DNA of 64,000 bases from an uncultured Gammaproteobacteria bacterium (GCA_964596525.1 CAZQUL010000001.1:140830-204829), one strand, 5' to 3'; positions 11,033-63,615 are shown, counted from the first letter of the stretch. Made by a program: numbers and translations. Notes: a model not told the origin generated them from the sequence alone.

Positions 11033-11881
11033 ATGTCCACCACCGATCAGTTCGGCCTTGTTGATTTCGTGCGCGGCCTGGGCGGCATTGCGCAGGGTGT
11101 CGTGAGCTACCCGCTCTTCGCCATTCCACGTACCGTGCGCCACATTTTTTCCGGCGCGATGATCGATGTATGGCGGGCCATTTGGCGCATGAAGCGGGTG
11201 GGACCCAATCTCAAGACAGTCCTGACGGTCGTCTCGGTTCCGGCTGCGGCCCTGACGCCCGGAGTGGTGGGTCTGATCGCAGGCTTGTACGGCGTCTATC
11301 GTGGTTTCAAGATTGCTTGCGATGAGAAAGATGAAGGGAATAGTCTCCTTAGCGTCTTTCCCGAGGCCTACCGCGAGCTGCGCACACTCGACCGCAAGGA
11401 GATTGCGAAGATGCTCGAGGACCTCGCCACCTACAAAAGCGAGCCACTCGACCCCGGCACGAAGCCGTTCGACATCTCGCCCCTCAAGGCAATCCGCGGT
11501 CTCGCTGCCGGCTCTCTGAGTGCAGTGGCCGGTGCGACACTCATAGGAACACTCGTTCTGTTCCGTCTACCTCAGCTTTCCGTGAAGGGCTTTAAGATAG
11601 CCTGGGAAGATGAAGATCAAATCTTTCTGGGACTGCTTTATACGATTGGCGTAATCATCATCACGCTGATCCTGATCCCGCTGTCATTCCTCATCCCCAC
11701 CCTGTTCGAGCTCGTCGACGGCACCCGCCACGGCTACCAGGAGAGCATCGGCTTTGCCCTCGGCAAGGCCTGGGACACGACCAAGAAGGTAAGCGAAGCA
11801 ATCAAGGACTTCCTCGGCAAGAAGAAGCAGCCTACCATCGCTTCGAGTCGGGCGCCTAACACATACAGCTCATCCACATAG
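11033..11881 (+). CDS. integral membrane protein, hypothetical
   Basis: Multiple hydrophobic segments (LTVVSVPAAALTPGVVGLIAGLYGV, IGVIIITLILIPLSFLIPTLF). Confidence 0.55.
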   Translation: MSTTDQFGLVDFVRGLGGIAQGVVSYPLFAIPRTVRHIFSGAMIDVWRAIWRMKRVGPNLKTVLTVVSVPAAALTPGVVGLIAGLYGVYRGFKIACDEKDEGNSLLSVFPEAYRELRTLDRKEIAKMLEDLATYKSEPLDPGTKPFDISPLKAIRGLAAGSLSAVAGATLIGTLVLFRLPQLSVKGFKIAWEDEDQIFLGLLYTIGVIIITLILIPLSFLIPTLFELVDGTRHGYQESIGFALGKAWDTTKKVSEAIKDFLGKKKQPTIASSRAPNTYSSST

Positions 11882-32400: not shown

Positions 32401-32708
32401 AGGAATTACAGATTGAATTACAACGACTCGGATTCCTCAGTAAATCCATCACCCCCACCACGCTCTACGGCACAGCAACGGATGCAGCCGTAAAAAAATA
32501 CCGCGCCTCGCTTGCCAAAAAACCAGTTGTCGCCACGCCGACCATCGACGAACTCATCGCCACCACCAAATTCGGCACCACAAGCGACAAAGTGCGACAA
32601 CTCCAAACCTTGCTTAAAAATCTAGGCTTTCTCAAAGCTTCTCCTACCGGTTACTACGGCGCCGCAACGCGCACAGCGGTAACGGAGTATACAAAAAGTA
32701 AACGATAA
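29427..32708 (+). CDS. giant secreted subtilisin-like (S8) serine protease with Ig-like DUF5011 domains, a poly-Gly tract and two C-terminal PG-binding domains
   Basis: Signal peptide. I9-like propeptide. Catalytic triad motifs VAVIDTGVAYNHPDL / HGTHVAGTIAAV / GTSMATPHVVGLAGLL. Two DUF5011-like blocks (DTTAPVIT...YIDPGATALDDVDGSV). Tract GGGGGGGGGGGGGGG. Two PG_binding_1-like repeats at the C-terminus. Confidence 0.9.
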   Translation: MPHSFLAGSVKVFTAFLIIICTIFGRGFFRLSAAEAREISAFESAAEQTPRHHRYVEGEVIVKHRDSSFNLRDVGGRIRSRTFWETRGLNVEREFRRQNINVLKSRRGQTTEAMVNELRNDPNVAFVQPNYIYTPGAIATDDTLRESLWGLDNSGQTVNGLAGTTNADINAPEAWAINEGTNTTTIVAVIDTGVAYNHPDLLANMWDGTNCKDANGNALGNCIHGYDYEDGDKNPAPTHNTHGTHVAGTIAAVKNNTKGIIGVAPNVHIMALKSSLTTTNIINAMDFAEQNGARIINASWGGPSNDLALKAAIDAFPGIFIAAAGNDASNNDSTPTYPCNFTSANLICVAATTQTDGLASFSNYGATSVDVGAPGTNILSAIDSSTKLNETFQSLTPPTLPSGWTTTGTAAAWATVNISDSGTMLTPDPNNPYADNASSSIISSSFDLSTSTGATFDFLARCQTEYATTSWRDYMILDFGSSSTTFTEFTRFDQAQLDFYNGVSNPAGTATYHFQNLQIPTHFLTSTFTFRFRWITNGTDNAYAGCAVDNITLVSFSDGADEKYGFLNGTSMATPHVVGLAGLLLGYKPNLSISQLKTAILNTGTTLAGLTGKSTTAKRIDAYAALVSVTPPTAVTSTPPSGSSSVALSTVPTVTFSKTMDTSTLASGIELRLYATDARVTTTVSSTLNPTIAVVPSVSLAPSTTYYLFVSTSVKDADGNNLEIPWSAADKAAHAFTTGPDTTAPVITILGDNPTSTLRGLIYIDPGATALDDVDGSVAVTVTGTVATSTAGAYSIVYSATDSSSNTAFATRTVNVVADTTAPVITLNGSSVITMYVRDIFNDPGASAIDNVDGSVSVSISGSVNITNAGSYTLTYTATDSSGNIATVTRTVNVTIPPGGGGGGGGGGGGGGGYSAPSYTAPTTLPVAVTSTRLTAPLLSPTPIGQFFPLNIPLTPDTTSIVTSETPPAPPPSRIETLLKNLKPGDRKTQVKELQIELQRLGFLSKSITPTTLYGTATDAAVKKYRASLAKKPVVATPTIDELIATTKFGTTSDKVRQLQTLLKNLGFLKASPTGYYGAATRTAVTEYTKSKR

Positions 32709-32710
32709 AC

Positions 32711-32746
32711 AAAAGCTCCGCGATCAGGTTGTCGCGGAGTTTTTTT
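32711..32746. terminator. bidirectional hairpin terminator between the convergent subtilase and paralogue P1
   Basis: aaaagctccgcga...tcgcggagttttttt. The first 22 nt are identical to the terminator at 33271. Confidence 0.6.
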
Positions 32747-33177: not shown

Positions 33178-33270
33178 TGACATCCTCCCTCGATCGTTTT
33201 GTTCGTGTGAACCGTAACACAGCGAAACAAAAAGTCAACGGTGGATACGATCAGAATACAAATTATTAAC

Positions 33271-33307
33271 AAAAGCTCCGCGATCAGATGACCGTGGAGC
33301 TAGTTTT
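33271..33307 (-). terminator. hairpin terminator after paralogue P2
   Basis: agctcc...ggagct stem with a T-run on the minus strand. 5' part identical to the 32711 terminator. Confidence 0.5.
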
Positions 33308-36902: not shown

Positions 36903-36989
36903 GCGGAAGGGGCGAGATTCGAACTCGCGGTACCCTTGCGGGCACGACAGTTTTCAAGACTGTTGCCTTAAACCACTCGGCCACCCTTC
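36903..36989 (-). tRNA. tRNA-Ser (anticodon TGA)
   Basis: Minus strand reads GGAAGGGTGGCCGAGTGGTTTAAGGCAACAGTCTTGAAAACTGTCGTGCCCGCAAGGGTACCGCGAGTTCGAATCTCGCCCCTTCCG. 7-bp acceptor stem, anticodon loop CTTGAAA (UGA), long variable arm, T-arm GAGTTCGAATCTC. No encoded CCA. Confidence 0.85.
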
Positions 36990-37093
36990 CAACGGACATT
37001 TACCGCCTTACCCTACCAAACCCTGCTGTACTTTTCAAGAATCAAAAAACCGCCATCCTCGGGGACAGCGGCGCGGGTCAGAGAGCTTGAGTA

Positions 37094-38767: not shown

Positions 38768-38899
38768 CGGACACCTCACAATGGTTGGGTAGCAAAACGA
38801 ACATCATACTATACCACAAAACAGAGCTTTTGTCAAGGTTAAAACGCGACAAAAAATGGCTTATATAAAACCAAAACCGACCATGTCTGGTCGGCAGCT

Positions 38900-44775: not shown

Positions 44776-44921
44776 GTCATTACGAGAAAGGAGTCAAGCG
44801 ACTGACGAAGCAATCTCCTCGTTAGCAAAGCAAGCTTTTAAATACTGAGGGATTGCCCGCCCGGCACGCCTTCTGCTGCCATGGCGGACGGGCTTCGTCA
44901 CTACGTTCCTCGCAATGACAT
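44776..44921. repeat. nested palindromic intergenic repeat, copy A
   Basis: Outer arms gtcattacgag/ctcgcaatgac, inner arms gacgaagcaatc/gggattgc...cttcgtc. The right arm carries a ~35-bp CCATGG-centred palindromic insert. Related copies at 53521 and 57885. Confidence 0.7.
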
Positions 44922-44954
44922 TTTAGAGGCTTGCCAGGTACTACAAATACGATC

Positions 44955-45937: not shown

Positions 45938-46774
45938 ATGAACCCACGTCCTATGCTTCCCCTGCATCTTTCACTCGTGCGCCACGGCGAATCCGAAGGC
46001 AACGTGTACGTCAAAGCCCGCGACGGCAAGCTACCCGAGGTCGGCCCCGTGCCACCGGAATTCTTGAAGCGTCACAGTACCAATTGGCGGCTCACTACCA
46101 AAGGCATTGCCCAAGTCAAAACGGTTGGTGAGTGGCTCAAAGCCGAGCACGGCGAGAATTTTTATACCCACTTCCGGGTTTCGGAAGCGCTCCGTGCCGT
46201 CGAGACCGCCGCCCATCTCGAACTGCCGAACGCGCAATGGATCATGGATTTTCGGCTCCGCGAGCGCGACCATGGCCTTATGGACGTGATGACGGTTGAA
46301 GACCGCACTACGACGTTCGCGCGCAATCTGGCACAACGCAAAATCAACTCGTTCTACTGGGCGCCGCATGACGGCGAGTCCATGGCCCGGCTCTGCGAAC
46401 GACTCCAGAGCGGCATTATCGACACGCTGCACCGCCGCGCAACGAACGACCGCGCTATTCTCGTCTGTCACGGAGAAGTGCTCTGGGGCATGCGTATCAT
46501 GCTTGAGCGCATCCCTGGCCACCGCTTCGTCGAACTCGACGCGGTGCATCACGGGCCGGACGAAATCTACAACGGCCAGGTCATCGAATATACCCGCATC
46601 AACCCGACAGACCAGAACGAAGTGCTCGAGTATTATGGCTGGACCCGTTCGGTGTGCCCATGGGATACGCGGCTCTCTACCAACGAATGGCGTCCCATCG
46701 TTCGCGAAACATTCTCGAACGAAGATCTCTTGGCCTTTGCCGAGAAGACGAAGCGCCTCGTCGATAGGAGCTAA
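45938..46774 (+). CDS. histidine phosphatase family protein
   Basis: LVRHGESEGN motif. Confidence 0.75.
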   Translation: MNPRPMLPLHLSLVRHGESEGNVYVKARDGKLPEVGPVPPEFLKRHSTNWRLTTKGIAQVKTVGEWLKAEHGENFYTHFRVSEALRAVETAAHLELPNAQWIMDFRLRERDHGLMDVMTVEDRTTTFARNLAQRKINSFYWAPHDGESMARLCERLQSGIIDTLHRRATNDRAILVCHGEVLWGMRIMLERIPGHRFVELDAVHHGPDEIYNGQVIEYTRINPTDQNEVLEYYGWTRSVCPWDTRLSTNEWRPIVRETFSNEDLLAFAEKTKRLVDRS

Positions 46775-46817
46775 ACCACAACCGCCCGGCTTACGCCAGG
46801 CGGTTTTCATTTTTCTT

Positions 46818-49510: not shown

Positions 49511-51064
49511 GTGGGCACAATAGAAGACTTTGGTTTTCTTTCTTGCTTTATGTTTTTCTCATTGCGCGCTGGTGCGGTCATCGGGCTTGAATGCACAGCA
49601 GTCGATGTGGAAGTGGATCTCAACAAAGGTCAGACTTCATTTGCGATTGTTGGGCTTGGCGACACGGCCATTAAAGAAGCTAAGGATCGCATTTTTTCCG
49701 CGTTCAAAAACTCGCAATTTTCGTACCCGTTTAATTTCCGCATCGTCATTAATTTAGCGCCGGCGGATTTGGCCAAAGAAGGTCCGGCGTATGATCTGCC
49801 AATGGCGATCGGGCTTATTGCTTTATCGCACAGTTTGAACCTGGCAGTGGATGACGCGCTTATCGTCGGTGAACTTGGGCTTGATGGCAGCGTGCGGCAT
49901 GTCACGGGCATTTTACCGCTCACGCTTTTTGCCAAAGAGCGCGGGCTTAAACGAGTGTTTGTGCCCGCACCCGACGCGCGCGAAGCCGCACTGGTATCGG
50001 GCATTGACGTGTACCCGGTAAAAACGCTCCGTGAACTCGTGGATCATTTAACAGACACTTTGTCTATCGCACCGTTCCAAACCGCGCAAGGATCTGACGA
50101 CGCCGAGGCGGTTTCATACGAGTATGACATGGCGCAGGTGAAAGGACAGGAGTTCGCCAAGCGCGCGCTCGAGATCGCGGCGAGCGGCAACCACAACATT
50201 ATGATGAGCGGGCCGCCCGGGTCGGGCAAGACACTCTTAGCCCGGACTCTTCCGTCGCTCCTACCACCCCTCACCGAAACCGAAGCGCTCGAAGTCACCA
50301 AAATCTATTCGGTCGCCGGACTCCTCAAACACAATCTCGTGCGCGAACGACCATTTCGTTCACCGCACCACACGGCTTCGGGTGTGGCGCTCGTCGGCGG
50401 CGGGCGCGTGCCGCGGCCCGGTGAAATATCACTCGCACATCGCGGCATTTTGTTCCTCGACGAATTTCCGGAGTTCCCGCGGACCGTCATAGAAAACCTA
50501 CGCCAGCCGCTCGAGGATGGCATCGTCACTATTTCGCGCGCCGAAGGGACACTGTCGTTCCCGGCCCGGTTCATTCTGGTTGCGAGCCTCAATCCCTGCC
50601 CGTGCGGTTTCGCGAGCGATCCGGAGCGCGCCTGTACCTGCTCTCCTATACAAAAACTGCGCTACCAGAAAAAACTCTCCGGACCCCTGCTCGATCGCAT
50701 TGATTTGCATGTTGAGGTGCCGCGCGTACAATTCGACAAACTGACCGCGGAAACGAACGCGGAAACATCCGGGGTGATCCGTGAGCGGGTGCTTGCTGCG
50801 CGCGAGCGTCAAGCACGCCGCTTCAAGGGCACGCGCCTTCTCACCAATAGCGAGATGGGCAACCGCGAAATCAAAGAATACTGCAAACTGGACGAAGAAA
50901 GCATGGCACTTCTACGCACAGCCACGACGCAGCTGCATTTATCGGCACGCGTGTACCACCGCTTGCTCAAAGTGGCACGCACCATCGCGGATCTCGCAGG
51001 GAGTGACCGTATCGCCCTTCCTCATGTGGCTGAGGCGCTGCAACTGCGATCCAGGCAGGAATAA
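49511..51064 (+). CDS. YifB/ComM family Mg-chelatase-like AAA+ ATPase
   Basis: Lon-protease-like N-domain (NLAPADLAKEGPAYDLPMAIG), Walker A MSGPPGSGKT, C-terminal ChlI/ComM domain. Start may be a non-ATG codon slightly upstream. Confidence 0.85.
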   Translation: MGTIEDFGFLSCFMFFSLRAGAVIGLECTAVDVEVDLNKGQTSFAIVGLGDTAIKEAKDRIFSAFKNSQFSYPFNFRIVINLAPADLAKEGPAYDLPMAIGLIALSHSLNLAVDDALIVGELGLDGSVRHVTGILPLTLFAKERGLKRVFVPAPDAREAALVSGIDVYPVKTLRELVDHLTDTLSIAPFQTAQGSDDAEAVSYEYDMAQVKGQEFAKRALEIAASGNHNIMMSGPPGSGKTLLARTLPSLLPPLTETEALEVTKIYSVAGLLKHNLVRERPFRSPHHTASGVALVGGGRVPRPGEISLAHRGILFLDEFPEFPRTVIENLRQPLEDGIVTISRAEGTLSFPARFILVASLNPCPCGFASDPERACTCSPIQKLRYQKKLSGPLLDRIDLHVEVPRVQFDKLTAETNAETSGVIRERVLAARERQARRFKGTRLLTNSEMGNREIKEYCKLDEESMALLRTATTQLHLSARVYHRLLKVARTIADLAGSDRIALPHVAEALQLRSRQE

Positions 51065-52185: not shown

Positions 52186-53511
52186 TTAGGCGGTTTCGAG
52201 ATCGGCGGCAAAAACCAGCGCGAGCGTGATCCACCACAGAAATGCCAAATCATTTTTAAAATACGGTACATCCACCAAACCGTGCATAACGAATGCGGCA
52301 ACTACTGCTACAGCGCCAAGCGCGGGCCATGATGCGCGAGTCAGTACTTGACGCATAGCCAAAACAACCGCGTACCCAAGTAAGGCAAACATTGCCAACA
52401 TACCCAAAAGCCCCGTTTCGGTCCAAAAATTGAGTACGATGTTGTGCGGATAGATGAGGCGTTCGAGCGCTTTCACGTCATAATGCGGTTTCTGCACTTT
52501 GCGAAAAAACTGGCGGAAACCAGGCCCGAAAACGAAGTTTTGTGGCGATGCGGTAAGATAGGACGTAGTGTAACTCCACAGCGTAAAACGGTTTTTACCG
52601 GCTTGGTCGCGAAAAAGCACCTGCTCGCGCACCGGGGCAACGAAGGCGATGGCCGCCACTACCCCAACGACACCAAGTAGAACAAGTTTGTACCATCGCA
52701 GGCCGACAGCGATTACCAAAAGTCCAGCACCCAAAGCCGCGACACCACCCGCTGATTTAGTAGCCGCAAGACATACGAGCGAAAGAAGAAGCGTAACGAC
52801 CGCAAGAATGACTGGGAGCGACATTCTTTTAAGAATTTCACGCCGGGACGCAAGCGCGATCGTGCGTACTGCGGACCACTCTTCACCAAGGTACGTAACG
52901 ATGAACAGCATAATCGGTACCATAAAGAGCGCCACCGCGTTCGGCGAGGTGTAAAACAACGTTACGCGCCGCGTGGCAGCTGCCATCCATTCGGGCGTCG
53001 CGATACCCCAGCCGGTAAGCGCTTGTGCAATGCCGTAGAGGGCCATGACGAGAACTGTCGCGCCCAGCGCGTAAAAAACATGGGTACGCACCACGAATGC
53101 GTTCTCAACGCTGGACGGACTGATGGAACGCACCCGAGCGATACAGATGATGGCGAAGATGAGCGGTTCAAGCACGTACGCACGCCACTGCCCAAACGAG
53201 AGAATCACCATGTCACTCACCGCGATGCTAGCAACAGACGAAGCAAGAAATACGAACGGTAGAATTGCCGCGAACGGCCGACGTTTGGCAAATGCTCTAA
53301 GAACCGGCAGGTCGCTTTTGGCATACCGCAGAAGCCATACACCCACTACCGCAGCCCACGTAATTTCGAGCAGCGTAGTCGGCAAGGGTCCGATATGAAA
53401 ACGAATCAGATAGCTTGGCAACGTAAACGCTAACCACAGTACAGCATAGCGCCAACGAAACCAGGCGACACCGGCGATGAGAGCTGCGTAGATAAGGGCA
53501 AAAATAGGCAT
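52186..53511 (-). CDS. O-antigen ligase/polymerase-like membrane protein (Wzy_C family)
   Basis: About 12 TM helices with a central large loop typical of the O-antigen ligase family. Confidence 0.55.
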   Translation of the reverse strand: MPIFALIYAALIAGVAWFRWRYAVLWLAFTLPSYLIRFHIGPLPTTLLEITWAAVVGVWLLRYAKSDLPVLRAFAKRRPFAAILPFVFLASSVASIAVSDMVILSFGQWRAYVLEPLIFAIICIARVRSISPSSVENAFVVRTHVFYALGATVLVMALYGIAQALTGWGIATPEWMAAATRRVTLFYTSPNAVALFMVPIMLFIVTYLGEEWSAVRTIALASRREILKRMSLPVILAVVTLLLSLVCLAATKSAGGVAALGAGLLVIAVGLRWYKLVLLGVVGVVAAIAFVAPVREQVLFRDQAGKNRFTLWSYTTSYLTASPQNFVFGPGFRQFFRKVQKPHYDVKALERLIYPHNIVLNFWTETGLLGMLAMFALLGYAVVLAMRQVLTRASWPALGAVAVVAAFVMHGLVDVPYFKNDLAFLWWITLALVFAADLETA

Positions 53512-53520
53512 AGTAGTAGT

Positions 53521-53624
53521 GTCATTGCGAGGAGCGAGTTAGACGAGCGACGAAGCAATCCCCTTGATAGAAGGGTGAGCACTGAATTACCGAGGGATTG
53601 CTTCGTCGTTCCTCCTCGCAATGA
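53521..53624. repeat. nested palindromic intergenic repeat, copy B (core form)
   Basis: gtcattgcgagg...gacgaagcaatcccc ttgatag ...gagggattgcttcgtc...cctcgcaatgac followed by a T-run on the plus strand. Confidence 0.7.
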
Positions 53625-53639
53625 CGGTGTTTTTTTAAA

Positions 53640-54392
53640 TCATTGTATTCTACTGACGCTCCACAAAATATCAAACCACTGGCGGAGCATGAGCGTCAAG
53701 GACGGGCTCGTTATCACAACCCCAATCCCCTCTTCTTTGCGGCTAAAGAATGCGACGGATTGGTCCCAAATAAAGAGCGATGTCACGAATGTACAACTCG
53801 GCGGCAAAAACCGCACCTCACGGCGTTCGAGTCGGTTGCGTTCTTTGGTGTAATTTTTGATTTCTTCGCTCGCGACACGCAGGCTCTTGAGAGCCAATCC
53901 TTTGGCCACACGACGACGATTAAAGTGCATTTTCTCGCCCAAAACACGCTGCAAATCGCGCGGTGAAACAATTTCATAGATAATCCGATCTTTAGCTTCA
54001 AGGATTTCGTAGAAAACGGTGCGCACGTGTTCACGGTACAATACGCGCACGCCGATGCGCGCAGAGGGCTCTTCGCGAATTTCTTTAAGAAACGGCATGA
54101 TTCCGGCCAGCTCCTCGAGTAAGCGCTCGGTTTGTTTTTTGAGTGTCTCGGGCGGCAACGCGGCGTAGTGATGCCGCGAACCGCGTTTAGTGGCGACCAC
54201 GATCCCCTTTTCCATAAGGCGTTTGATGATGGACTGCACTGTCGAGACTGGCACATCGAGACGCGTCGCGAGCGGCGAGAGCGTAAGGGGCGATTCAGCG
54301 ATAAGCGCCAAGTACACCGATTGTTCGGGCACGCTTAAACCGTAACGGGCAAGCACTTCGGAGATTTCTTGTTTAGCATCAGCATCAATCAT
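53640..54392 (-). CDS. TrmB-like transcriptional regulator (paralogue of 44955..45689)
   Basis: wHTH (LSVPEQSVYLALIAESPLTLSPLATRLDVPVSTVQSIIKRLMEKGIV) plus a TrmB-like C-terminal domain. Confidence 0.6.
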   Translation of the reverse strand: MIDADAKQEISEVLARYGLSVPEQSVYLALIAESPLTLSPLATRLDVPVSTVQSIIKRLMEKGIVVATKRGSRHHYAALPPETLKKQTERLLEELAGIMPFLKEIREEPSARIGVRVLYREHVRTVFYEILEAKDRIIYEIVSPRDLQRVLGEKMHFNRRRVAKGLALKSLRVASEEIKNYTKERNRLERREVRFLPPSCTFVTSLFIWDQSVAFFSRKEEGIGVVITSPSLTLMLRQWFDILWSVSRIQ

Positions 54393-54519
54393 ACTACTTA
54401 TTTACGATATTTTTCGTAAATTATATATGGTTTATTTTACCATATATATAACATTTTTCAACATATCCACGTTTTTTACTTTAAAAAGTATGTAATAAAT
54501 ATGCAGCAGCGCGTACGAT

Positions 54520-54999
54520 GTGGACGAAGGGAGGAAGCGAATGCACACGAAACCCCGCCGTTCATTACAATTACTTGTCACGGATGTGGTGGTGCTCAGC
54601 GGTCCGTATGCAGACCCGAACATCACGCTCATCAGGAGCACCAGACCGTACCTCGCAGGCAAGCTCCTCTTGCCCGGCGGACACGTGGACGAAGGAGAAA
54701 CCACCAAGCGCGCCGCACAGCGGGAAGGCGGCGAAGAGGTGGGTCTCACCATCGAACTCGACGAACTCGAGCTCTTTACTGTGCTCGATGCGCCGGGACG
54801 CGACGTGCGCGACGGCGTGGATCGGGTGTCGGTCGTATACCTAGTCGACCGGCGCGGACACGACGTAGCACCACAAGCCGGCGACGATGCGGCCGCGGTG
54901 GAAACACTGCCGCTGCGCACCGTTTCGGCTGTGGATATGGGTTATGACCACGGGACAGTTGTCGAAATGCTCAAAACCAGCTATGGTGGTGGCGGATAA
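54520..54999 (+). CDS. NUDIX hydrolase
   Basis: Nudix box GGHVDEGETTKRAAQREGGEEVGL. Confidence 0.75.
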   Translation: MDEGRKRMHTKPRRSLQLLVTDVVVLSGPYADPNITLIRSTRPYLAGKLLLPGGHVDEGETTKRAAQREGGEEVGLTIELDELELFTVLDAPGRDVRDGVDRVSVVYLVDRRGHDVAPQAGDDAAAVETLPLRTVSAVDMGYDHGTVVEMLKTSYGGGG

Positions 55000-55016
55000 A
55001 CCACTGGGGGTACATC

Positions 55017-56084
55017 ATGGAAACCAACGCGTCTGACGAGAAGAAACTGCTCATCATCCCTTTGCCGGAGATGACGGAGATGGCCAAAAGAATTCTATCC
55101 GAACTCGAAAGAATGGGAGACCATCGTTTCCGCATCGTCGATCTCGACTGCACTTCGTATGCCGACGGATCGCTCGAAGTGGAGCTCAAAGACTCGGTCC
55201 GCTTCCGCTATGCATATCTTCTAGCGTCACCTGCACTCGACATCCGTACCGGTAAGCCCAATCCCAACGAGAGCTTGATGCGACTTCTCTTGGCGATCAA
55301 CGCCCTGCAGAACTCCTCCGTCAAAAAGGATGTGATGCTGGTTCTGCCTTATATCCCCTACCAGCGCGCCGATCGTACGGGAGGCAAGCGTAAGGCGACA
55401 GGCATCTCTGTCGTCAAAAAGCTTCTTAAATCCCATTCTTGCGTTGATCGCATCATTACCTGCGAACCGCACTTCTCGCAGCTCGGCACGGTGTTTGACG
55501 GCGAGCTCGATGAGCTCAGCAGCGTAAAGATGTTCGGCGAAATGATCTGCGAACGATGGGGGGAGCACCGCGACAACCTGGTTGTGGTTTCTCCTGACGC
55601 TGGCGGTCTCAGTCGCGCCACCCGCCTCGCCGACTACCTGAGCCGCAAGCTCGGCACGCTCATCGAGGTCATGTTCCTTAACAAGGTCCGCAAAGAGGCC
55701 AACAAAGTCGAGAAGTCCTTCATCCCGCTGAGCGGCAACTATCATGGCAAGAAGGCCGTTCTCATCGACGACATCGGTGACACGATGGGCACAGCCTGCC
55801 AGGGTATGAAAACGCTCACCGAGGCTGGTATGGACGTGCTCGGTATGTTCGTGACGCACGGCGTTTTCAGTTCGCATGAGGGCGTGAGCGCGGCCGATCG
55901 CTGTCGTGCAGCCGGCCTCAGGGTTGTGACCACCAACACCATTCCGCGCTCGGACGAGTATTACACCGCAAACGCGGACTGGATCATCCACGTCGTCGAT
56001 ATCGCGCCGCGCCTCGCCAAGGCCATCCATAACATGGCGACCAGCGCGAGCTTCAGCGCCCTCAATGGGCACGAGGAGAAGTAG
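55017..56084 (+). CDS. ribose-phosphate pyrophosphokinase-like protein (Prs family)
   Basis: N-terminal Prs domain and PRPP-binding loop (VLIDDIGDTMGTACQG). Confidence 0.7.
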   Translation: METNASDEKKLLIIPLPEMTEMAKRILSELERMGDHRFRIVDLDCTSYADGSLEVELKDSVRFRYAYLLASPALDIRTGKPNPNESLMRLLLAINALQNSSVKKDVMLVLPYIPYQRADRTGGKRKATGISVVKKLLKSHSCVDRIITCEPHFSQLGTVFDGELDELSSVKMFGEMICERWGEHRDNLVVVSPDAGGLSRATRLADYLSRKLGTLIEVMFLNKVRKEANKVEKSFIPLSGNYHGKKAVLIDDIGDTMGTACQGMKTLTEAGMDVLGMFVTHGVFSSHEGVSAADRCRAAGLRVVTTNTIPRSDEYYTANADWIIHVVDIAPRLAKAIHNMATSASFSALNGHEEK

Positions 56085-56087
56085 ACC

Positions 56088-56657
56088 ATGAAGACCGTTG
56101 AAGATACGCTTCAGGAAGCCATTCTCAAGATCCCGCACTTTCCCGATGCGAGCTGCCCGGTGTTCTATCACATCGGACCGATCATCGAGAATCCGGCACT
56201 GTTTGACCTGGCGATCTCGAGCTTGCACGCGGCGATCGATAAGCGACTCATTATCACCCGCGTCGCAGCCATCGAAGCGCGGGCCTGGCTCTTCGTTCGC
56301 GATGTCGCGCGGCCGTACCGCGCAGCGGTGGATCTCATCCGCAAGGTCGGCAAGACGCCGCCGCCGACGATCCGATCCGAAGAACATGCCCGTGAGTATG
56401 GCACCGCGATTCTCGAGATGGCCGCAATGCCGACGGTCGAAACGCGACCGGACGGCGTAACGATCGTTCTCGATGACGTGACCGCGACCGGCGCCACGCA
56501 GATCGCTGCCGCACGTATGGTGCGGAATCGTCGGAACAAAGACGGCAGCACACCGCGCGTCGTGTGCCTCTCCCTCATCGAGCTTACTGCGCTCAAGGGT
56601 CGCGAGCGGCTCGCGGAGATGGGCGTTCCGCTCTTTTCCGTAATCAAGATTCCCTAA
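56088..56657 (+). CDS. phosphoribosyltransferase (adenine PRTase-like)
   Basis: PRPP-binding motif IVLDDVTATGAT. Confidence 0.65.
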   Translation: MKTVEDTLQEAILKIPHFPDASCPVFYHIGPIIENPALFDLAISSLHAAIDKRLIITRVAAIEARAWLFVRDVARPYRAAVDLIRKVGKTPPPTIRSEEHAREYGTAILEMAAMPTVETRPDGVTIVLDDVTATGATQIAAARMVRNRRNKDGSTPRVVCLSLIELTALKGRERLAEMGVPLFSVIKIP

Positions 56658-56693
56658 AAACAACCCCACGACTTCGGTCGTGGGGATTCTGTT

Positions 56694-57863
56694 TTAATTC
56701 GGAATTTTCCATTCATTGATAAGTTCGAGCAGTCGGTCGTCTTCGATCGCCCGTCGTGCATCACGCATGAGATTCAACATCACGGCTAGATTATGGATGC
56801 TCGCGAGACGCATTGCCGTCATTTCTTCGGCAACGAAGAGATGATGAATATAACTGCGCGTGTACCGTGTACAGGTAAAGCAGGTGCAATTCGCATCGAG
56901 TGCTGCAAGGTCGTTTTTGAATGCCGCGTTCTTGATGTTAAGTCGATGGCGACGTGACGGATCTTTGATATAGATCATGCCATGGCGCGCCAAACGGGTT
57001 GGCGCCACGCAATCAAACATGTCCGCACCATGACTCACCGCAATAAGGAGGTCATACGGATTTAAACCAAGACCCATGGTATAGCGCGGTCGGTTCGGGT
57101 CGAGGATCGGCACAACCCAATCCAGGATGTCGGCGGTTGCAGTCATGTTATAACCGATGGATTCGCCGCCGATCGCCAAACCGTCGAACGCGAGATTTGT
57201 AATAAAACGAGCGGACTCTTCGCGTAGCTCGCGGTGCGTACCACCCTGTACAATACCGAAGACGAATTGTTCGTAACCGTGATACTGACGATTAGCTTCG
57301 TGCGCGGCCAGAGATTGCACGGCCCAACGGTGCGTGCGCTCGAGCGCAGTGCGGGCATACGCGGTGGTCGCGTCGTCTGGCGTACATTCATCGAAAGCCA
57401 TGATGATGTCAGCGCCGAGCTTGTGTTGGATGTCGATGGCACTTTCCGGCGTGAAGCGTTTCATTGAGCCGTCGAGATGGCTTTTAAACGTGACGCCTTC
57501 ATCATCGATCGTGACGAGTTTGCCTTGGTCGCCCGTGCCAGCGCGTGCTTTTTGCAAACCCAAACTAAAAACCTGAAACCCACCACTGTCGGTAAGAAGC
57601 GCGCCGTTCCAGTTCATAAATTTGTGTAAGCCGCCCTGGCGACCGATAAGGTCTTCGCCGGGACGCAGGTGCAGGTGGTAGGTATTAGCCAACATAATCT
57701 CGGCACCAAGTGTTTTCATGTCATCTTGGTCGAGCGTTTTTACGCCGGCTTGCGTGCCAACCGGCATGAAACACGGCGTTTCGATGGTGCCATGCGCAGT
57801 CGTTAAACGACCGCGGCGGGCCGGAGTGTGAGGGTCTTGCTTGAGAATCGTGAACAAAGACAT
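56694..57863 (-). CDS. tgt: queuine tRNA-ribosyltransferase
   Basis: ARRGRLTTAHGTIETPCFMPVGTQAGVK...LLTDSGGFQVFSL... and zinc-site cysteines (CTCFTCTRY). Confidence 0.9.
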   Translation of the reverse strand: MSLFTILKQDPHTPARRGRLTTAHGTIETPCFMPVGTQAGVKTLDQDDMKTLGAEIMLANTYHLHLRPGEDLIGRQGGLHKFMNWNGALLTDSGGFQVFSLGLQKARAGTGDQGKLVTIDDEGVTFKSHLDGSMKRFTPESAIDIQHKLGADIIMAFDECTPDDATTAYARTALERTHRWAVQSLAAHEANRQYHGYEQFVFGIVQGGTHRELREESARFITNLAFDGLAIGGESIGYNMTATADILDWVVPILDPNRPRYTMGLGLNPYDLLIAVSHGADMFDCVAPTRLARHGMIYIKDPSRRHRLNIKNAAFKNDLAALDANCTCFTCTRYTRSYIHHLFVAEEMTAMRLASIHNLAVMLNLMRDARRAIEDDRLLELINEWKIPN

Positions 57864-57884
57864 AGATGCAATTCGTCATTGCGA

Positions 57885-58016
57885 GGAATAATGACGAAGA
57901 CCGTCCGCCATGGCAGCACGGCGTGCCGGGCGGGCAATCCCCTTGATAGCTGAGTGGGTTCTGAAGTACAGAGGGATTGCTTCGTCAGTCGTCTGACTCC
58001 TTCCTCGCAATGACAT
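57885..58016. repeat. nested palindromic intergenic repeat, copy C
   Basis: Same outer and inner arms as copies A and B. The CCATGG-centred insert sits in the left arm, inverted relative to copy A. Confidence 0.7.
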
Positions 58017-61949: not shown

Positions 61950-62011
61950 ACGATAAAATGCTTTTTTGGCTAATTATAAAGAAAAAAGAAGATTGTACGA
62001 GGCTGTTTCCC

Positions 62012-62040
62012 TTGACAAAAACCTCGTTTTCTGGTATCAT
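62012..62040 (+). promoter_or_regulatory. sigma70 promoter with extended -10
   Basis: TTGACA, 17 nt, TGgTATCAT, upstream of the 3D-domain gene. Confidence 0.45.
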
Positions 62041-62120
62041 TTCGTGTTACGCTCAGTCGGCTTGGATACCTTAGAGGTATCCTTTTGGTTTTTTAAAGGG
62101 GCGTACATAACCCCTTCGCT

Positions 62121-62720: not shown

Positions 62721-63615
62721 CATCTTCGCAAGCACAACCGCCCTGCACCCGCAGGGCGGTTGTGGTAGTAAGCGTACGGCGCGGTTATTTCTCACTTGTT
62801 ATCTTGACAAACGCTCTCTGCCGTGGTATAAAGTGCGGTCGTTCTTTCACCGCACGTAACCCCGGAGGCACGCCATGCTTGAGATATTCGGCATGTTCGC
62901 GCGTGCCATCTGGTGGCACGCAGAACATATTTTCAGCGTACAGGTTATCGTTCCACTAGCGCCAGCTACGACAATGCCCGCGACGGAACGGCTTCCTTGC
63001 AGCACACACCGTGGCAAACCCCGCGGCCACAACTGGCCGCCAAAAACCGGCTGCGGGCGCGCCAGGAAAGAAACGCCGACCGTCACGAGGTCGCTTCCCG
63101 AGCGGAAGAACTATCGTGGAGAAGATCAGCTTCCTGATCTGACCCAACAGATCCTTAGCACAAAGGATTCAAACATCGTGCCCGCTCAACGTCGGAAACG
63201 GAGAGAAGGAGACGCTCATTAAACACGTCTATGGCGGTATAACCCGCCCGCTGTCGAGCTGACAGCGTAATCCACCCACTGTTGGAAAGGGGGGGTATTG
63301 AGGATGTATTGCATCTTCGTCAATTGGTTTGGCCTTAAACCGGTCAGCGGTCGGGCCTTAAGGGGAGGCTAGAGACCCTACGTGAGGGGTGAATCTCCTG
63401 ACCGCCGCGGATCCTTGTCCGCGTACAAAGATCGCGTCGCGAACGATCCGAACAATCCGTGGGCGAGAGTTAAAGGATTGTTTGATGCAAGGTAGGCACC
63501 TCGATGGCTAAGAAGCAGGCGGGGAAACCCTTAAACATCCTGCGGAGCATCAATCGAGACGTGCGACAAGCGACAACTCTTTGCCCGAGCGGATTTCATC
63601 CGCATCGGGCATAAC

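What the first reader, a model, noticed from the sequence alone, without database searches (positions are those of the whole stretch)
57885..58016. Family of nested palindromic intergenic repeats, three copies in 64 kb
Copies at 44776-44921, 53521-53624 and 57885-58016 share the outer inverted arms gtcattgcgagg / cctcgcaatgac and the inner inverted arms gacgaagcaatcccc / ggggattgcttcgtc. Each copy can fold as a long imperfect hairpin of about 100 nt. Each lies in the short gap 3' of a minus-strand gene (the TrmB-like gene, the TrmB-like paralogue, and the FemAB-like gene) and 5' of the next minus-strand gene. Copy B is followed by a run of T on the plus strand. This looks like a MITE/REP-like structured element or a shared regulatory or terminator RNA structure.
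Basis: seen in the sequence. Interest (0 to 1): 0.62.

Follow-up and report, generated by a model that had tools for sequence, protein, structure and literature searches.

The report
Hairpin repeat dimers, Ssn-nuclease type
The three intergenic palindromes are inverted pairs of a short DNA hairpin motif found across many bacterial phyla; it belongs to a known class of repeats that flank, and in tested relatives are cut by, small single-strand-specific GIY-YIG nucleases (Ssn), so this is a new sub-family in a new host group, not a new kind of element.

Summary
The window has exactly three copies (44776-44919, 53521-53625, 57875-58014), not chance.

The unit occurs in many bacterial phyla and in phage-like contigs. 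It has the CGTC/TGTC head, the A-T stem start and the head-to-head habit of the CGTC-tagged REP superfamily (Di Nocera 2013).

In 63 metagenome loci fetched only by protein similarity, a ~95-aa GIY-YIG gene has such units within 150 nt on at least one side in 54 and on both sides in 37. I first took this for new. It was published in 2025 (Chenal et al., Ssn nucleases and their NTS/SRM hairpins). Ssn cuts only single-stranded DNA just upstream of its hairpin.

The window family keeps the same determinants (GTC head, C after the stem), but the published SRM search pattern misses it (0 of 444 units). The host is a Patescibacteria bacterium. No Ssn gene lies in the window.

A terminator or regulatory RNA role is not supported. 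Verdict: new member of a known kind, moderate interest.

The parts
44776..44919 (.). Copy A: head-to-head dimer (40-nt unit, 35-nt spacer, 69-nt long-form unit).
   Evidence: It folds at -54.6 (+) and -66.6 (-) kcal/mol.
44776..44815 (+). A left unit, GTCATTACGAGAAAGGAGTCAAGCGACTGACGAAGCAATC. The folding strand is the plus strand.
   Evidence: Covariance model R1 gives E 8.2e-6. It matches 36 of 40 positions of C's right unit.
44816..44850 (+). A spacer, 35 nt.
   Evidence: It is homologous to the B and C spacers in the same orientation (22/35 versus 8-9/35 for the reverse complement).
44851..44919 (-). A right unit, long form. An extra G+C hairpin (P3, about 44857-44892) sits between GACGAAG and GCAATC.
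   Evidence: R1 gives E 5.8e-5 for 44889-44922. It matches 62 of 65 positions of C's left unit. The P3 hairpin appears in the folds.
53521..53625 (.). Copy B: head-to-head dimer (40-nt unit, 35-nt spacer, 30-nt unit). It lies 9 nt from the Wzy_C-like start codon and 14 nt from the TrmB-like stop.
   Evidence: It folds at -62.3 and -55 kcal/mol, z -9.5 and -8.3.
53521..53560 (+). B left unit, GTCATTGCGAGGAGCGAGTTAGACGAGCGACGAAGCAATC.
   Evidence: R1 gives E 3.6e-9.
53561..53595 (+). B spacer, 35 nt.
   Evidence: It matches 27 of 35 positions of the C spacer in the same orientation.
53596..53625 (-). B right unit, GTCATTGCGAGGAGGAACGACGAAGCAATC.
   Evidence: R1 gives E 9.5e-9. All 30 nt are identical to units on Calothrix and Aulosira plasmids.
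57875..58014 (.). Copy C: head-to-head dimer with its arms swapped relative to A and B (65-nt long-form unit, 35-nt spacer, 40-nt unit). It lies 11 nt from the TGT start codon and 19 nt from the FemAB stop.
   Evidence: It folds at -68 and -63.3 kcal/mol. The public short-read contig L001 ends inside it.
57875..57939 (+). C left unit, long form, with the P3 hairpin at about 57900-57933.
   Evidence: R1 gives only E 2.5 because the insert splits the unit.
57940..57974 (+). C spacer, 35 nt.
57975..58014 (-). C right unit, GTCATTGCGAGGAAGGAGTCAGACGACTGACGAAGCAATC.
   Evidence: R1 gives E 1e-7.

Best explanation
**What the copies are.** Each copy is a head-to-head (inverted) dimer of a DNA hairpin unit. 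The unit reads Y-GTC, a 5-bp stem ATTGC/GCAAT, tandem G.A mismatches plus one bulged A, a freely variable inner hairpin (P2, sometimes with a second hairpin P3), and a 3' C. The unit belongs to the CGTC-tagged REP superfamily, that is, to the hairpin repeats (NTS/SRM) that accompany Ssn nucleases. Ssn proteins are ~95-aa single-domain GIY-YIG enzymes.

**Most likely mechanism (inferred by homology).** When the G-rich strand of a unit becomes single-stranded during replication, DNA uptake or repair, it folds. A cognate Ssn then binds the hairpin and its 3' C and cuts the single strand a few nucleotides 5' of the GTC head. In a dimer each strand carries one cleavable unit.

**Origin of the window copies (inferred).** The gene-less dimers in this window are non-autonomous relatives of unit-ssn-unit cassettes. 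How they are copied to new sites is unknown.

**Shown here:** the anatomy of the copies, covariation in P2, the family's breadth, its linkage to Ssn-family genes in other genomes, and conservation of the head and tail.

**Inferred:** that this Patescibacteria genome has a cognate Ssn, and that these copies are cut.

Effects of the roughly 100-nt hairpin on the surrounding mRNAs are possible by-products.
For: **Family breadth**
Genome hosts include Alpha-, Gamma- and Deltaproteobacteria, Chloroflexi, Patescibacteria, Bacteroidota, Cyanobacteria, Planctomycetota, Zixibacteria and Firmicutes.
- Of 176 neighbouring unit pairs closer than 1.5 kb, 109 are inward-facing dimers, with a modal spacer of 24-28 nt.

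**Structure**
- There are 303 distinct P2 sequences. Their mean terminal stem is 2.3 bp against 0.54 bp when shuffled. GCGNAGC is the commonest form.
- In a 34-sequence alignment, 4 of 5 P2 pairs change on both sides. The covariation score is 0.139 against 0.063, reached by 0 of 500 shuffles.

**Linkage to the nuclease**
- Eighty loci were fetched by GIY-YIG protein similarity alone. Of the 63 with enough flank, 37 have a unit upstream and an inverted unit downstream, and 54 have at least one.
- Unit density is 7.2 per kb near the gene against 0.82 per kb elsewhere. A reversed-sequence control gave 1 unit against 274.
- The protein tree tracks the stem type of the flanking repeats (0 of 5000 permutations).
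- Named cases have cognate CGTC repeats around the gene: N. gonorrhoeae, A. lipoferum, N. aromaticivorans, S. meliloti, Planktothrix and Spirosoma.
- The GIY-YIG protein enclosed by an ATTGC-type dimer (L182) matches PF01541 at 5.9e-18. It is 44% identical (E 2e-26) to the N. gonorrhoeae homologue of meningococcal SsnA.
- Candidate active-site residues (Y, Y, R, H, E, N; my assignment) are 97-100% conserved in the 80 proteins.

**Same determinants as the characterised enzyme**
- In 107 units from the protein-fetched loci, positions -3 to -1 are G, T and C in 104, 103 and 104 cases, and +1 is C in 106.
- For SsnA, the three bases before the palindrome govern cutting and the C after it governs binding. 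The enzyme acts on ssDNA only (PMC11893778).
Against: - No Ssn-like ORF lies in the 64-kb window (E up to 10, six frames). The rest of the 1.34-Mb source contig could not be read.
- The published SRM search pattern hits none of the window arms and 0 of 444 family units. No enzyme has been tested on this sub-family.
- Its stem and loop do not fit CGTC families 1-4 (stems of 8-9 bp, loops of 4-5 nt).
- Only 4 of 241 unit-selected loci carry a GIY-YIG ORF, so most copies sit far from any nuclease gene.
- No clean filled-versus-empty site pair was found, so mobility is not demonstrated.
Confidence: 0.72

Rival explanations
1. An RNA-level element. The dimers would act in the transcripts of the minus-strand operons as terminators, attenuators, 3'-end stabilisers or translational regulators, and that would be why they are kept.
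For: All three lie in tight gaps between co-directional genes, 14-35 nt after a stop codon and, for B and C, 9-11 nt before the next start. The RNA folds are very stable. B has a T7 run on the plus strand. E. coli REPs are known to stabilise upstream mRNA (own knowledge).
Against: There is no T-run on the sense strand, and the scan does not call the copies terminators, whereas short canonical terminator-like hairpins are present nearby. No Rfam match lies at the copies. Single units elsewhere are 33 against and 32 with the gene strand. GNA triloops and tandem G.A mismatches are hallmarks of stable DNA mini-hairpins (own knowledge), and only one strand can form them. SsnA does not bind RNA.
Confidence: 0.12
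2. Orphan repeats. The copies are homologous to Ssn-associated hairpins, but this small Patescibacteria genome has no cognate nuclease. The copies would then be relics, acquired or inherited, with no present activity.
For: No Ssn ORF lies in the window. Most unit-bearing loci lack one nearby. In the 2025 study 81%, not all, of genomes rich in such repeats had a homologue.
Against: The six arms are well preserved, with intact heads and tails. Paired arms of different copies match at 36 of 40 and 62 of 65 positions, which suggests recent copying or maintenance.
Confidence: 0.2
3. REPINs mobilised by a RAYT (Y1/HUH) transposase, as in Pseudomonas and E. coli.
For: The organisation as inverted doublets of hairpin units, without target-site duplication, is the same.
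Against: The head is CGTC/TGTC, not GTAG. An HMM built from RAYT and related Y1 transposases found one ORF in 332 loci (2.26 Mb), and it does not flank the units. Di Nocera et al. also found no transposase next to CGTC repeats.
Confidence: 0.03
4. A classical MITE derived from a DDE-transposase insertion sequence.
For: It has terminal inverted arms, a short length and intergenic positions.
Against: There is no target-site duplication in 92 of 101 dimers. Conservation stops two bases outside GTC...GAC. Units also occur singly and in tandem arrays, and no transposase is associated.
Confidence: 0.03

Closest known systems
Ssn nucleases and their NTS/SRM hairpin repeats (Chenal et al., Nat Commun 2025, PMC11893778)
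   Same: The unit has an unpaired (C/T)GTC head, a stem that starts with AT, and a C immediately after the stem. Units flank ~95-aa single-domain GIY-YIG genes on one or both sides. A protein enclosed by an ATTGC-type dimer is 44% identical to the N. gonorrhoeae homologue of SsnA.
   Different: The published SRM search pattern does not match this family (0 of 444). The stem is 5 bp, followed by tandem G.A mismatches and a variable inner hairpin of 5 to more than 40 nt, not a continuous 8-9-bp stem. No enzyme for this sub-family has been tested. The paper does not mention Patescibacteria.
CGTC-tagged REP superfamily, families CGTC-1 to -4, including dRS3 and RPE-4/-6 (Di Nocera et al. 2013, PMC3733652)
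   Same: It shares the CGTC/TGTC head, the stem beginning with A-T and T-A pairs, a short unpaired tail, predominantly head-to-head dimers, intergenic positions, and the absence of a flanking transposase.
   Different: Those families have 8-9-bp stems and 4-5-nt loops. Here the stem is interrupted by G.A pairs and P2 is variable. The tail in the window is CCC/CTC rather than CCA. That paper lists five phyla, without Patescibacteria.
REPIN/RAYT systems (Bertels & Rainey 2011; Nunvar 2010; Ton-Hoang 2012)
   Same: Both are inverted doublets of a hairpin unit and have no target-site duplication. In both, a small enzyme gene flanked by its own repeats recognises ssDNA hairpins.
   Different: REPINs have a GTAG head and a Y1/HUH transposase. 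Here the head is CGTC, the linked gene is GIY-YIG, and Y1 genes are not associated.
d(GCGNAGC) DNA mini-hairpins with GNA triloops (Hirao, Yoshizawa; own knowledge)
   Same: The commonest P2 is GCGAAGC, GCGCAGC, GCGTAGC or GCGGAGC (147 of 553 units).
   Different: Those are isolated oligonucleotide motifs. Here the mini-hairpin is the replaceable tip of a larger conserved unit.

Membership tests
Ssn-related hairpin repeats (NTS/SRM) | The repeats flank genes of Ssn-family (cd10448-type, single-domain GIY-YIG) nucleases. | tested here: met
   This holds for the family in other genomes: 54 of 63 protein-fetched loci have a unit on at least one side and 37 on both. L182 has the gene inside a dimer. 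The protein is 44% identical to the Neisseria SsnA homologue. I did not run the cd10448 model itself.
Ssn-related hairpin repeats (NTS/SRM) | A cognate Ssn gene is present in the same genome. | not testable with these tools
   None lies in the 64-kb window. The 1.34-Mb source contig could not be read.
Ssn-related hairpin repeats (NTS/SRM) | The unit matches the published degenerate SRM search sequence HGTCWYN(0-2)YYVSBRHN(0-5)WNVSBRGN(0-2)RNCYNB. | tested here: not met
   0 of 444 family units match and none of the six window arms does. The one window hit, at 11342, is unrelated. This is an operational search pattern, not the definition of the class.
Ssn-related hairpin repeats (NTS/SRM) | Three conserved unpaired bases lie 5' of the palindrome and a C immediately follows it (the cutting and binding determinants). 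| tested here: met
   In 107 independent units, G, T and C occur in 104, 103 and 104 cases at -3 to -1, and C in 106 cases at +1. All six window arms have GTC and a trailing C.
Ssn-related hairpin repeats (NTS/SRM) | The repeat is cut as ssDNA on one strand only by the cognate enzyme. | not testable with these tools
   This needs biochemistry.
CGTC-tagged REP superfamily | An unpaired terminal CGTC (or TGTC/CCTC) tag. | tested here: met
   At position -1 before GTC, 75 of 101 dimers have C and 21 have T. The window arms are TGTC four times and CGTC twice.
CGTC-tagged REP superfamily | The stem starts with complementary A-T residues at positions 1 and 2. | tested here: met
   The stem is ATTGC/GCAAT. 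Its pairs are 98% formed in the alignment.
CGTC-tagged REP superfamily | A stem of 8-9 bp and a loop of 4-5 nt (families CGTC-1 to -4). | tested here: not met
   The unit has a 5-bp stem, tandem G.A mismatches plus a bulged A, and a variable P2 of 5 to more than 40 nt. It would be a further family.
CGTC-tagged REP superfamily | Predominantly head-to-head dimers. | tested here: met
   109 of 176 close neighbour pairs are head-to-head, as are all three window copies.
REPIN/RAYT | A GTAG-type head and an associated Y1 (RAYT) transposase. | tested here: not met
   The head is CGTC. Only one Y1-like ORF was found in 332 loci.
MITE (DDE-type) | Target-site duplication at the ends. | tested here: not met
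   92 of 101 dimers have none, the same as shuffled pairs.
Intrinsic terminator | A G+C hairpin followed by a U-run on the strand of the upstream gene. | tested here: not met
   No T-run follows the copies on the minus strand, and the scan does not call them terminators.
Any Rfam family | A score at or near a family's threshold. | tested here: not met
   No hit lies at the copies, at gathering thresholds or at E up to 10.

The most novel reading that the evidence does not exclude
The tandem-G.A family seen here may be one of the most widespread Ssn-type hairpin classes, reaching Patescibacteria and phage-like contigs, yet it is invisible to the published SRM search pattern. Its inner hairpin is freely replaceable (303 variants, plus optional second hairpins). 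Its partner nucleases would therefore read only the GTC head, the 5-bp stem, the G.A platform and the 3' C. That would make it a naturally modular ssDNA cleavage site. The swapped arms around a fixed spacer (copy C versus A and B) would mean the dimers pass through a hairpin- or cruciform-mediated inversion or copying step.
Probability: 0.35. Interest if true: 0.55.

Novelty: new member of a known kind. Interest (0 to 1): 0.4.

Why it matters
- **Naming an unlabelled repeat.** These palindromes are unannotated in the public records I read, and they coincide with breaks in a short-read assembly of this genome. The report ties them to a defined enzyme class.
- **Joining two literatures.** The CGTC-tagged REPs of 2013 were said to "lack a dedicated transposase". 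The Ssn/NTS system of 2025 does not cite that work. In the organisms of the 2013 paper that I checked, the Ssn gene sits inside the species' own CGTC repeats.
- **A gap in the published search pattern.** It misses a large, cross-phylum sub-family. The variable inner hairpin of that sub-family says something about what the nuclease must recognise.
- **Relevance to the host.** Patescibacteria have small genomes and are thought to depend on DNA uptake (own knowledge). A system that cuts incoming single strands at marked sites would matter there, but that remains to be shown.

Tried and rejected
- **Sequence-string literature searches.** Two searches for the arm sequences returned only unrelated primer matches.
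- **Novelty of the GIY-YIG link.** Four keyword searches found nothing linking GIY-YIG to REPs, and I briefly treated the link as new. A fifth search, which included dRS3, found the 2025 Ssn paper, so I withdrew that claim.
- **RAYT hypothesis.** Rejected.
- **Empty versus filled sites.** An all-against-all BLAST of the loci gave no clean pair. Orthologous intergenic regions carry different palindromes rather than simple indels.
- **Same Ssn protein in different contexts as evidence of mobility.** P0107 occurs only in one context across samples.
- **Segmental duplication as the source of A and B.** Rejected: the two TrmB-like proteins are only 28% identical.
- **Sense-strand bias of single units.** An early impression from phage-like contigs did not hold overall.
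- **Phage records.** The phage GenBank collection has no match to copy B.
- **Source genome.** It could not be fetched beyond the window. The only contig retrieved was a 4.3-kb Logan contig.

Full report
**1. The observation**

The three copies are real. Their limits are A 44776-44919, B 53521-53625 and C 57875-58014.

The 12-mer GTCATTGCGAGG occurs five times without mismatch, and a sixth arm has two mismatches. All six lie at copy ends. The inner arm GACGAAGCAATCCCC matches four times at the copies with at most one mismatch. All 11 hits at up to 3 mismatches were reached by 0 of 100 shuffles.

Each copy folds into a long hairpin on either strand: -54.6 to -68 kcal/mol, z -3.7 to -9.5, with 0 of 200 shuffles as stable.

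Each copy lies between two minus-strand genes:

| Copy | Gene upstream (minus-strand sense) | Gap after its stop | Gene downstream | Gap before its start |
|---|---|---|---|---|
| A | TrmB-like | 35 nt | LTD protein | 195 nt |
| B | TrmB-like | 14 nt | Wzy_C-like | 9 nt |
| C | FemAB | 19 nt | TGT | 11 nt |

The two TrmB-like proteins are only 28% identical. A and B are therefore not products of a recent segmental duplication.

**2. Anatomy**

The "outer" and "inner" arms are the two halves of one unit: Y-GTC / ATTGC / GA / [P2 hairpin] / GA-A / GCAAT / C. Each copy is a head-to-head dimer of two such units around a 35-nt spacer.

- A and B have a 40-nt unit on the left.
- B has a 30-nt unit on the right.
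- A (right) and C (left) have a 65-69-nt long form. In it an extra G+C hairpin sits between GACGAAG and GCAATC.
- These two long arms match at 62 of 65 positions. Similar two-hairpin forms occur elsewhere, for example in L174 and L250.

The three spacers are homologous in the same orientation (22-27 of 35 matches, against 8-9 for the reverse complement). The arms of C, however, are swapped relative to A and B.

A covariance model built only from units of other genomes finds the six arms in the window and nothing else. Five arms score E 3.6e-9 to 5.8e-5. C-left, split by its insert, scores E 2.5.

**3. The family**

It did the same in one-genome-per-species bacterial genomes. Hosts there include Alpha-, Gamma- and Deltaproteobacteria, Chloroflexi, Patescibacteria, Bacteroidota, Cyanobacteria, Melainabacteria, Planctomycetota, Zixibacteria, Ignavibacteria, Latescibacterota, Firmicutes and Helicobacter.

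Among 462 relaxed units, 109 of 176 close neighbour pairs are inward-facing dimers, with a modal spacer of 24-28 nt.

B's right unit is identical over all 30 nt to units on Calothrix and Aulosira plasmids. It is 94-97% identical to units on Trichormus, Tolypothrix and Methylosinus plasmids. The three loci I read (Calothrix, Aulosira, Methylosinus) are unannotated, gene-less dimers.

*The inner hairpin.* P2 is a true hairpin with free sequence.
- There are 303 distinct versions, with a mean terminal stem of 2.3 bp against 0.54 bp when shuffled.
- GCGNAGC is the commonest form.
- In a gap-free alignment of 34 units, 4 of 5 P2 pairs change on both sides. The covariation score is 0.139 against 0.063, reached by 0 of 500 shuffles.
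- Tandem G.A pairs and GNA triloops are features of very stable DNA mini-hairpins (own knowledge). Only the G-rich strand can form them.

*Dimer boundaries.* They are sharp. Position -1 is C in 75 dimers and T in 21, and position -2 is a pyrimidine. Nothing is conserved beyond that. There is no target-site duplication in 92 of 101 dimers.

**4. What it is linked to**

*The lead.* One dimer (L182) encloses a 96-aa GIY-YIG gene. I used three such proteins to fetch 80 metagenome loci by protein similarity alone.

*Flanking units.* Of the 63 loci with at least 150 nt on both sides:

| Class | Loci |
|---|---|
| Unit upstream and inverted unit downstream | 37 |
| Correctly oriented unit on at least one side (includes the 37) | 54 |
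| No unit of these four stem types | 9 |

The 9 loci in the last row mostly carry other CGTC-type palindromes instead. Unit density is 7.2 per kb near the gene against 0.82 per kb elsewhere. A reversed-sequence control gave 1 unit against 274.

*Sister families.* They have co-varying stems (ATTCT/AGAAT, ATCCT/AGGAT, ACCCT/AGGGT, ATCCC/GGGAT). The protein tree tracks the stem type (0 of 5000 permutations).

*Named organisms.* The gene sits among the species' own CGTC repeats:
- N. gonorrhoeae: dRS3/CGTC-1.
- Azospirillum lipoferum AZO_p3: CGTC-1 dimers on both sides, between sufB and sufC.
- N. aromaticivorans: CGTC-2-like.
- S. meliloti: CGTC-3.
- Planktothrix and Spirosoma.

*Negative checks.* Y1/RAYT transposases are not associated: one ORF in 332 loci. 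Candidate catalytic residues (Y, Y, R, H, E, N; my assignment) are 97-100% conserved in the 80 proteins.

**5. Comparison with what is known**

The repeat class matches the CGTC-tagged REPs of Di Nocera et al. 2013. It has the CGTC/TGTC head, a stem starting with A-T, a short tail and predominantly head-to-head dimers. Their text says these repeats "apparently lack a dedicated transposase".

For a while I believed the GIY-YIG link was new, because four literature searches found nothing. A fifth search found Chenal et al. 2025. Their findings:
- The Ssn family consists of single-domain GIY-YIG nucleases.
- Their genes are flanked by hairpin repeats, called NTS in Neisseria and SRM elsewhere. 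71% of homologues have at least one nearby and 42% have them on both sides.
- SsnA binds its hairpin only as ssDNA, not as dsDNA, RNA or the reverse strand. It cuts a few nt upstream.
- The three bases before the palindrome matter for cutting, and the C after it matters for binding.
- The enzyme lowers transformation by NTS-bearing DNA.

My association is therefore a re-discovery, and the numbers agree.

The L182 protein is 44% identical (E 2e-26) to the N. gonorrhoeae homologue of SsnA. In 107 units from the protein-fetched loci, GTC before the stem and C after it are conserved in 103-106 cases. These are the determinants found for SsnA.

What is not covered by that paper:
- Its SRM search pattern matches 0 of 444 units of this family and none of the window arms.
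- It does not cite the CGTC-REP work.
- It does not mention Patescibacteria.

**6. Host and context**

The best TGT matches that carry an organism name are Magasanikbacteria and other Patescibacteria. An identical TGT lies on a 1.34-Mb contig. The closest other TGT is only 70% identical, so no close genome was available for comparison.

No Ssn-like ORF lies in the window.

Genes around the copies are a mix of envelope and housekeeping functions: LTD protein, Wzy_C, LysM-M23 peptidase, FemAB, PBP1A, TGT, Prs and NUDIX. There is also a Mg-chelatase/ComM-like ATPase.

**7. Mechanism and rivals**

*Most likely.* The dimers are recognition sites of an Ssn-type ssDNA nuclease. They are non-autonomous relatives of unit-ssn-unit cassettes. 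Cutting is expected a few nt 5' of each GTC head on the strand that forms the G.A-containing hairpin. How the copies spread is unknown, because a hydrolytic GIY-YIG enzyme cannot by itself join strands. The flip/flop of the spacer hints at an inversion or hairpin-copying step (n = 3, not tested further).

*Terminator or regulatory RNA.* This reading is not supported. There is no sense-strand T-run, and the genome's terminator-like sites look different. No Rfam match lies at the copies. Single units show no gene-strand bias. Side effects of such stable hairpins on the mRNAs of B and C are nevertheless plausible.

*Orphan repeats.* That the copies have no cognate enzyme in this genome cannot be excluded.

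**8. Verdict**

This is a real element of a known kind (CGTC-REP / Ssn hairpin repeats). It represents a structurally distinct and very widespread sub-family, found here in a host group that neither paper mentions. Interest is moderate.

Noticed in passing
window 44816-44850, 53561-53595, 57940-57974: The 35-nt spacers of all three copies are homologous in the same orientation, but the arms of C are swapped relative to A and B. The family therefore exists in "flip" and "flop" forms.
   Followed up: partly
window 49550-51064 (+): A Mg-chelatase/ComM-like ATPase (PF01078, PF13541, PF13335) lies between copies A and B. ComM homologues act in natural transformation in other bacteria (own knowledge), which is the process Ssn modulates in Neisseria.
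   Followed up: no
window 53511-53521 and 57863-57875: The start codons of the Wzy_C-like gene and of TGT lie only 9 and 11 nt from the base of a very stable hairpin of about -60 kcal/mol. No Shine-Dalgarno-like sequence lies in between.
   Followed up: no
L001 (= window 53694-57930): The only public contig retrieved for this organism's TGT gene ends inside copy C and starts 69 nt from copy B. The repeats coincide with breaks in a short-read assembly.
   Followed up: partly
L016, L121, L037, L004 and other IMG/VR contigs: In phage-like contigs with three or more single units, the units are co-oriented within a contig (49 of 54 on the majority strand, 37.8 expected). Across contigs there is no consistent relation to gene strand.
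   Followed up: partly
L259 1796-2348; L265 84-1338: Tandem arrays of head-to-head dimers (period about 105-125 nt) lie directly next to an Ssn gene. In L259 the gene occupies the spacer of the first dimer.
   Followed up: partly
L322 9888-10396; L337; L340: Ssn cassettes are wedged between uvrB and uvrA (L322), between sufB and sufC (Azospirillum lipoferum AZO_p3), and between an MmeI-type restriction enzyme and DISARM drmA (Planktothrix plasmid).
   Followed up: no
L167 556-1838: In a Patescibacteria MAG, a 308-aa ORF that may be a transposase lies between two oppositely oriented units about 1.1 kb apart. I did not check its identity.
   Followed up: no
L050, L100, L116 (phage-like contigs): Unrelated A+T-rich palindromic insertions of about 100-150 nt lie between a ribosome-binding site and the start codon of an orthologous gene. 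They are absent from related contigs.
   Followed up: no
window 32700-32746 and 33260-33306; 46774-46805 and 62730-62766: Two further small repeat pairs look like shared terminator-type hairpins (…GCTCCGCGATCAG…CGCGGAGTTTTTTT and AACCGCC…GGCGGTT).
   Followed up: no
window 38800-38838 and 62010-62048: A 39-nt inverted repeat, 74% complementary, contains TTGACA-like and TATCAT-like hexamers. It may be a shared promoter region.
   Followed up: no
window 36904-36990 (-): This is the only Rfam hit at gathering threshold: an 87-nt tRNA, long enough to have a long variable arm.
   Followed up: no
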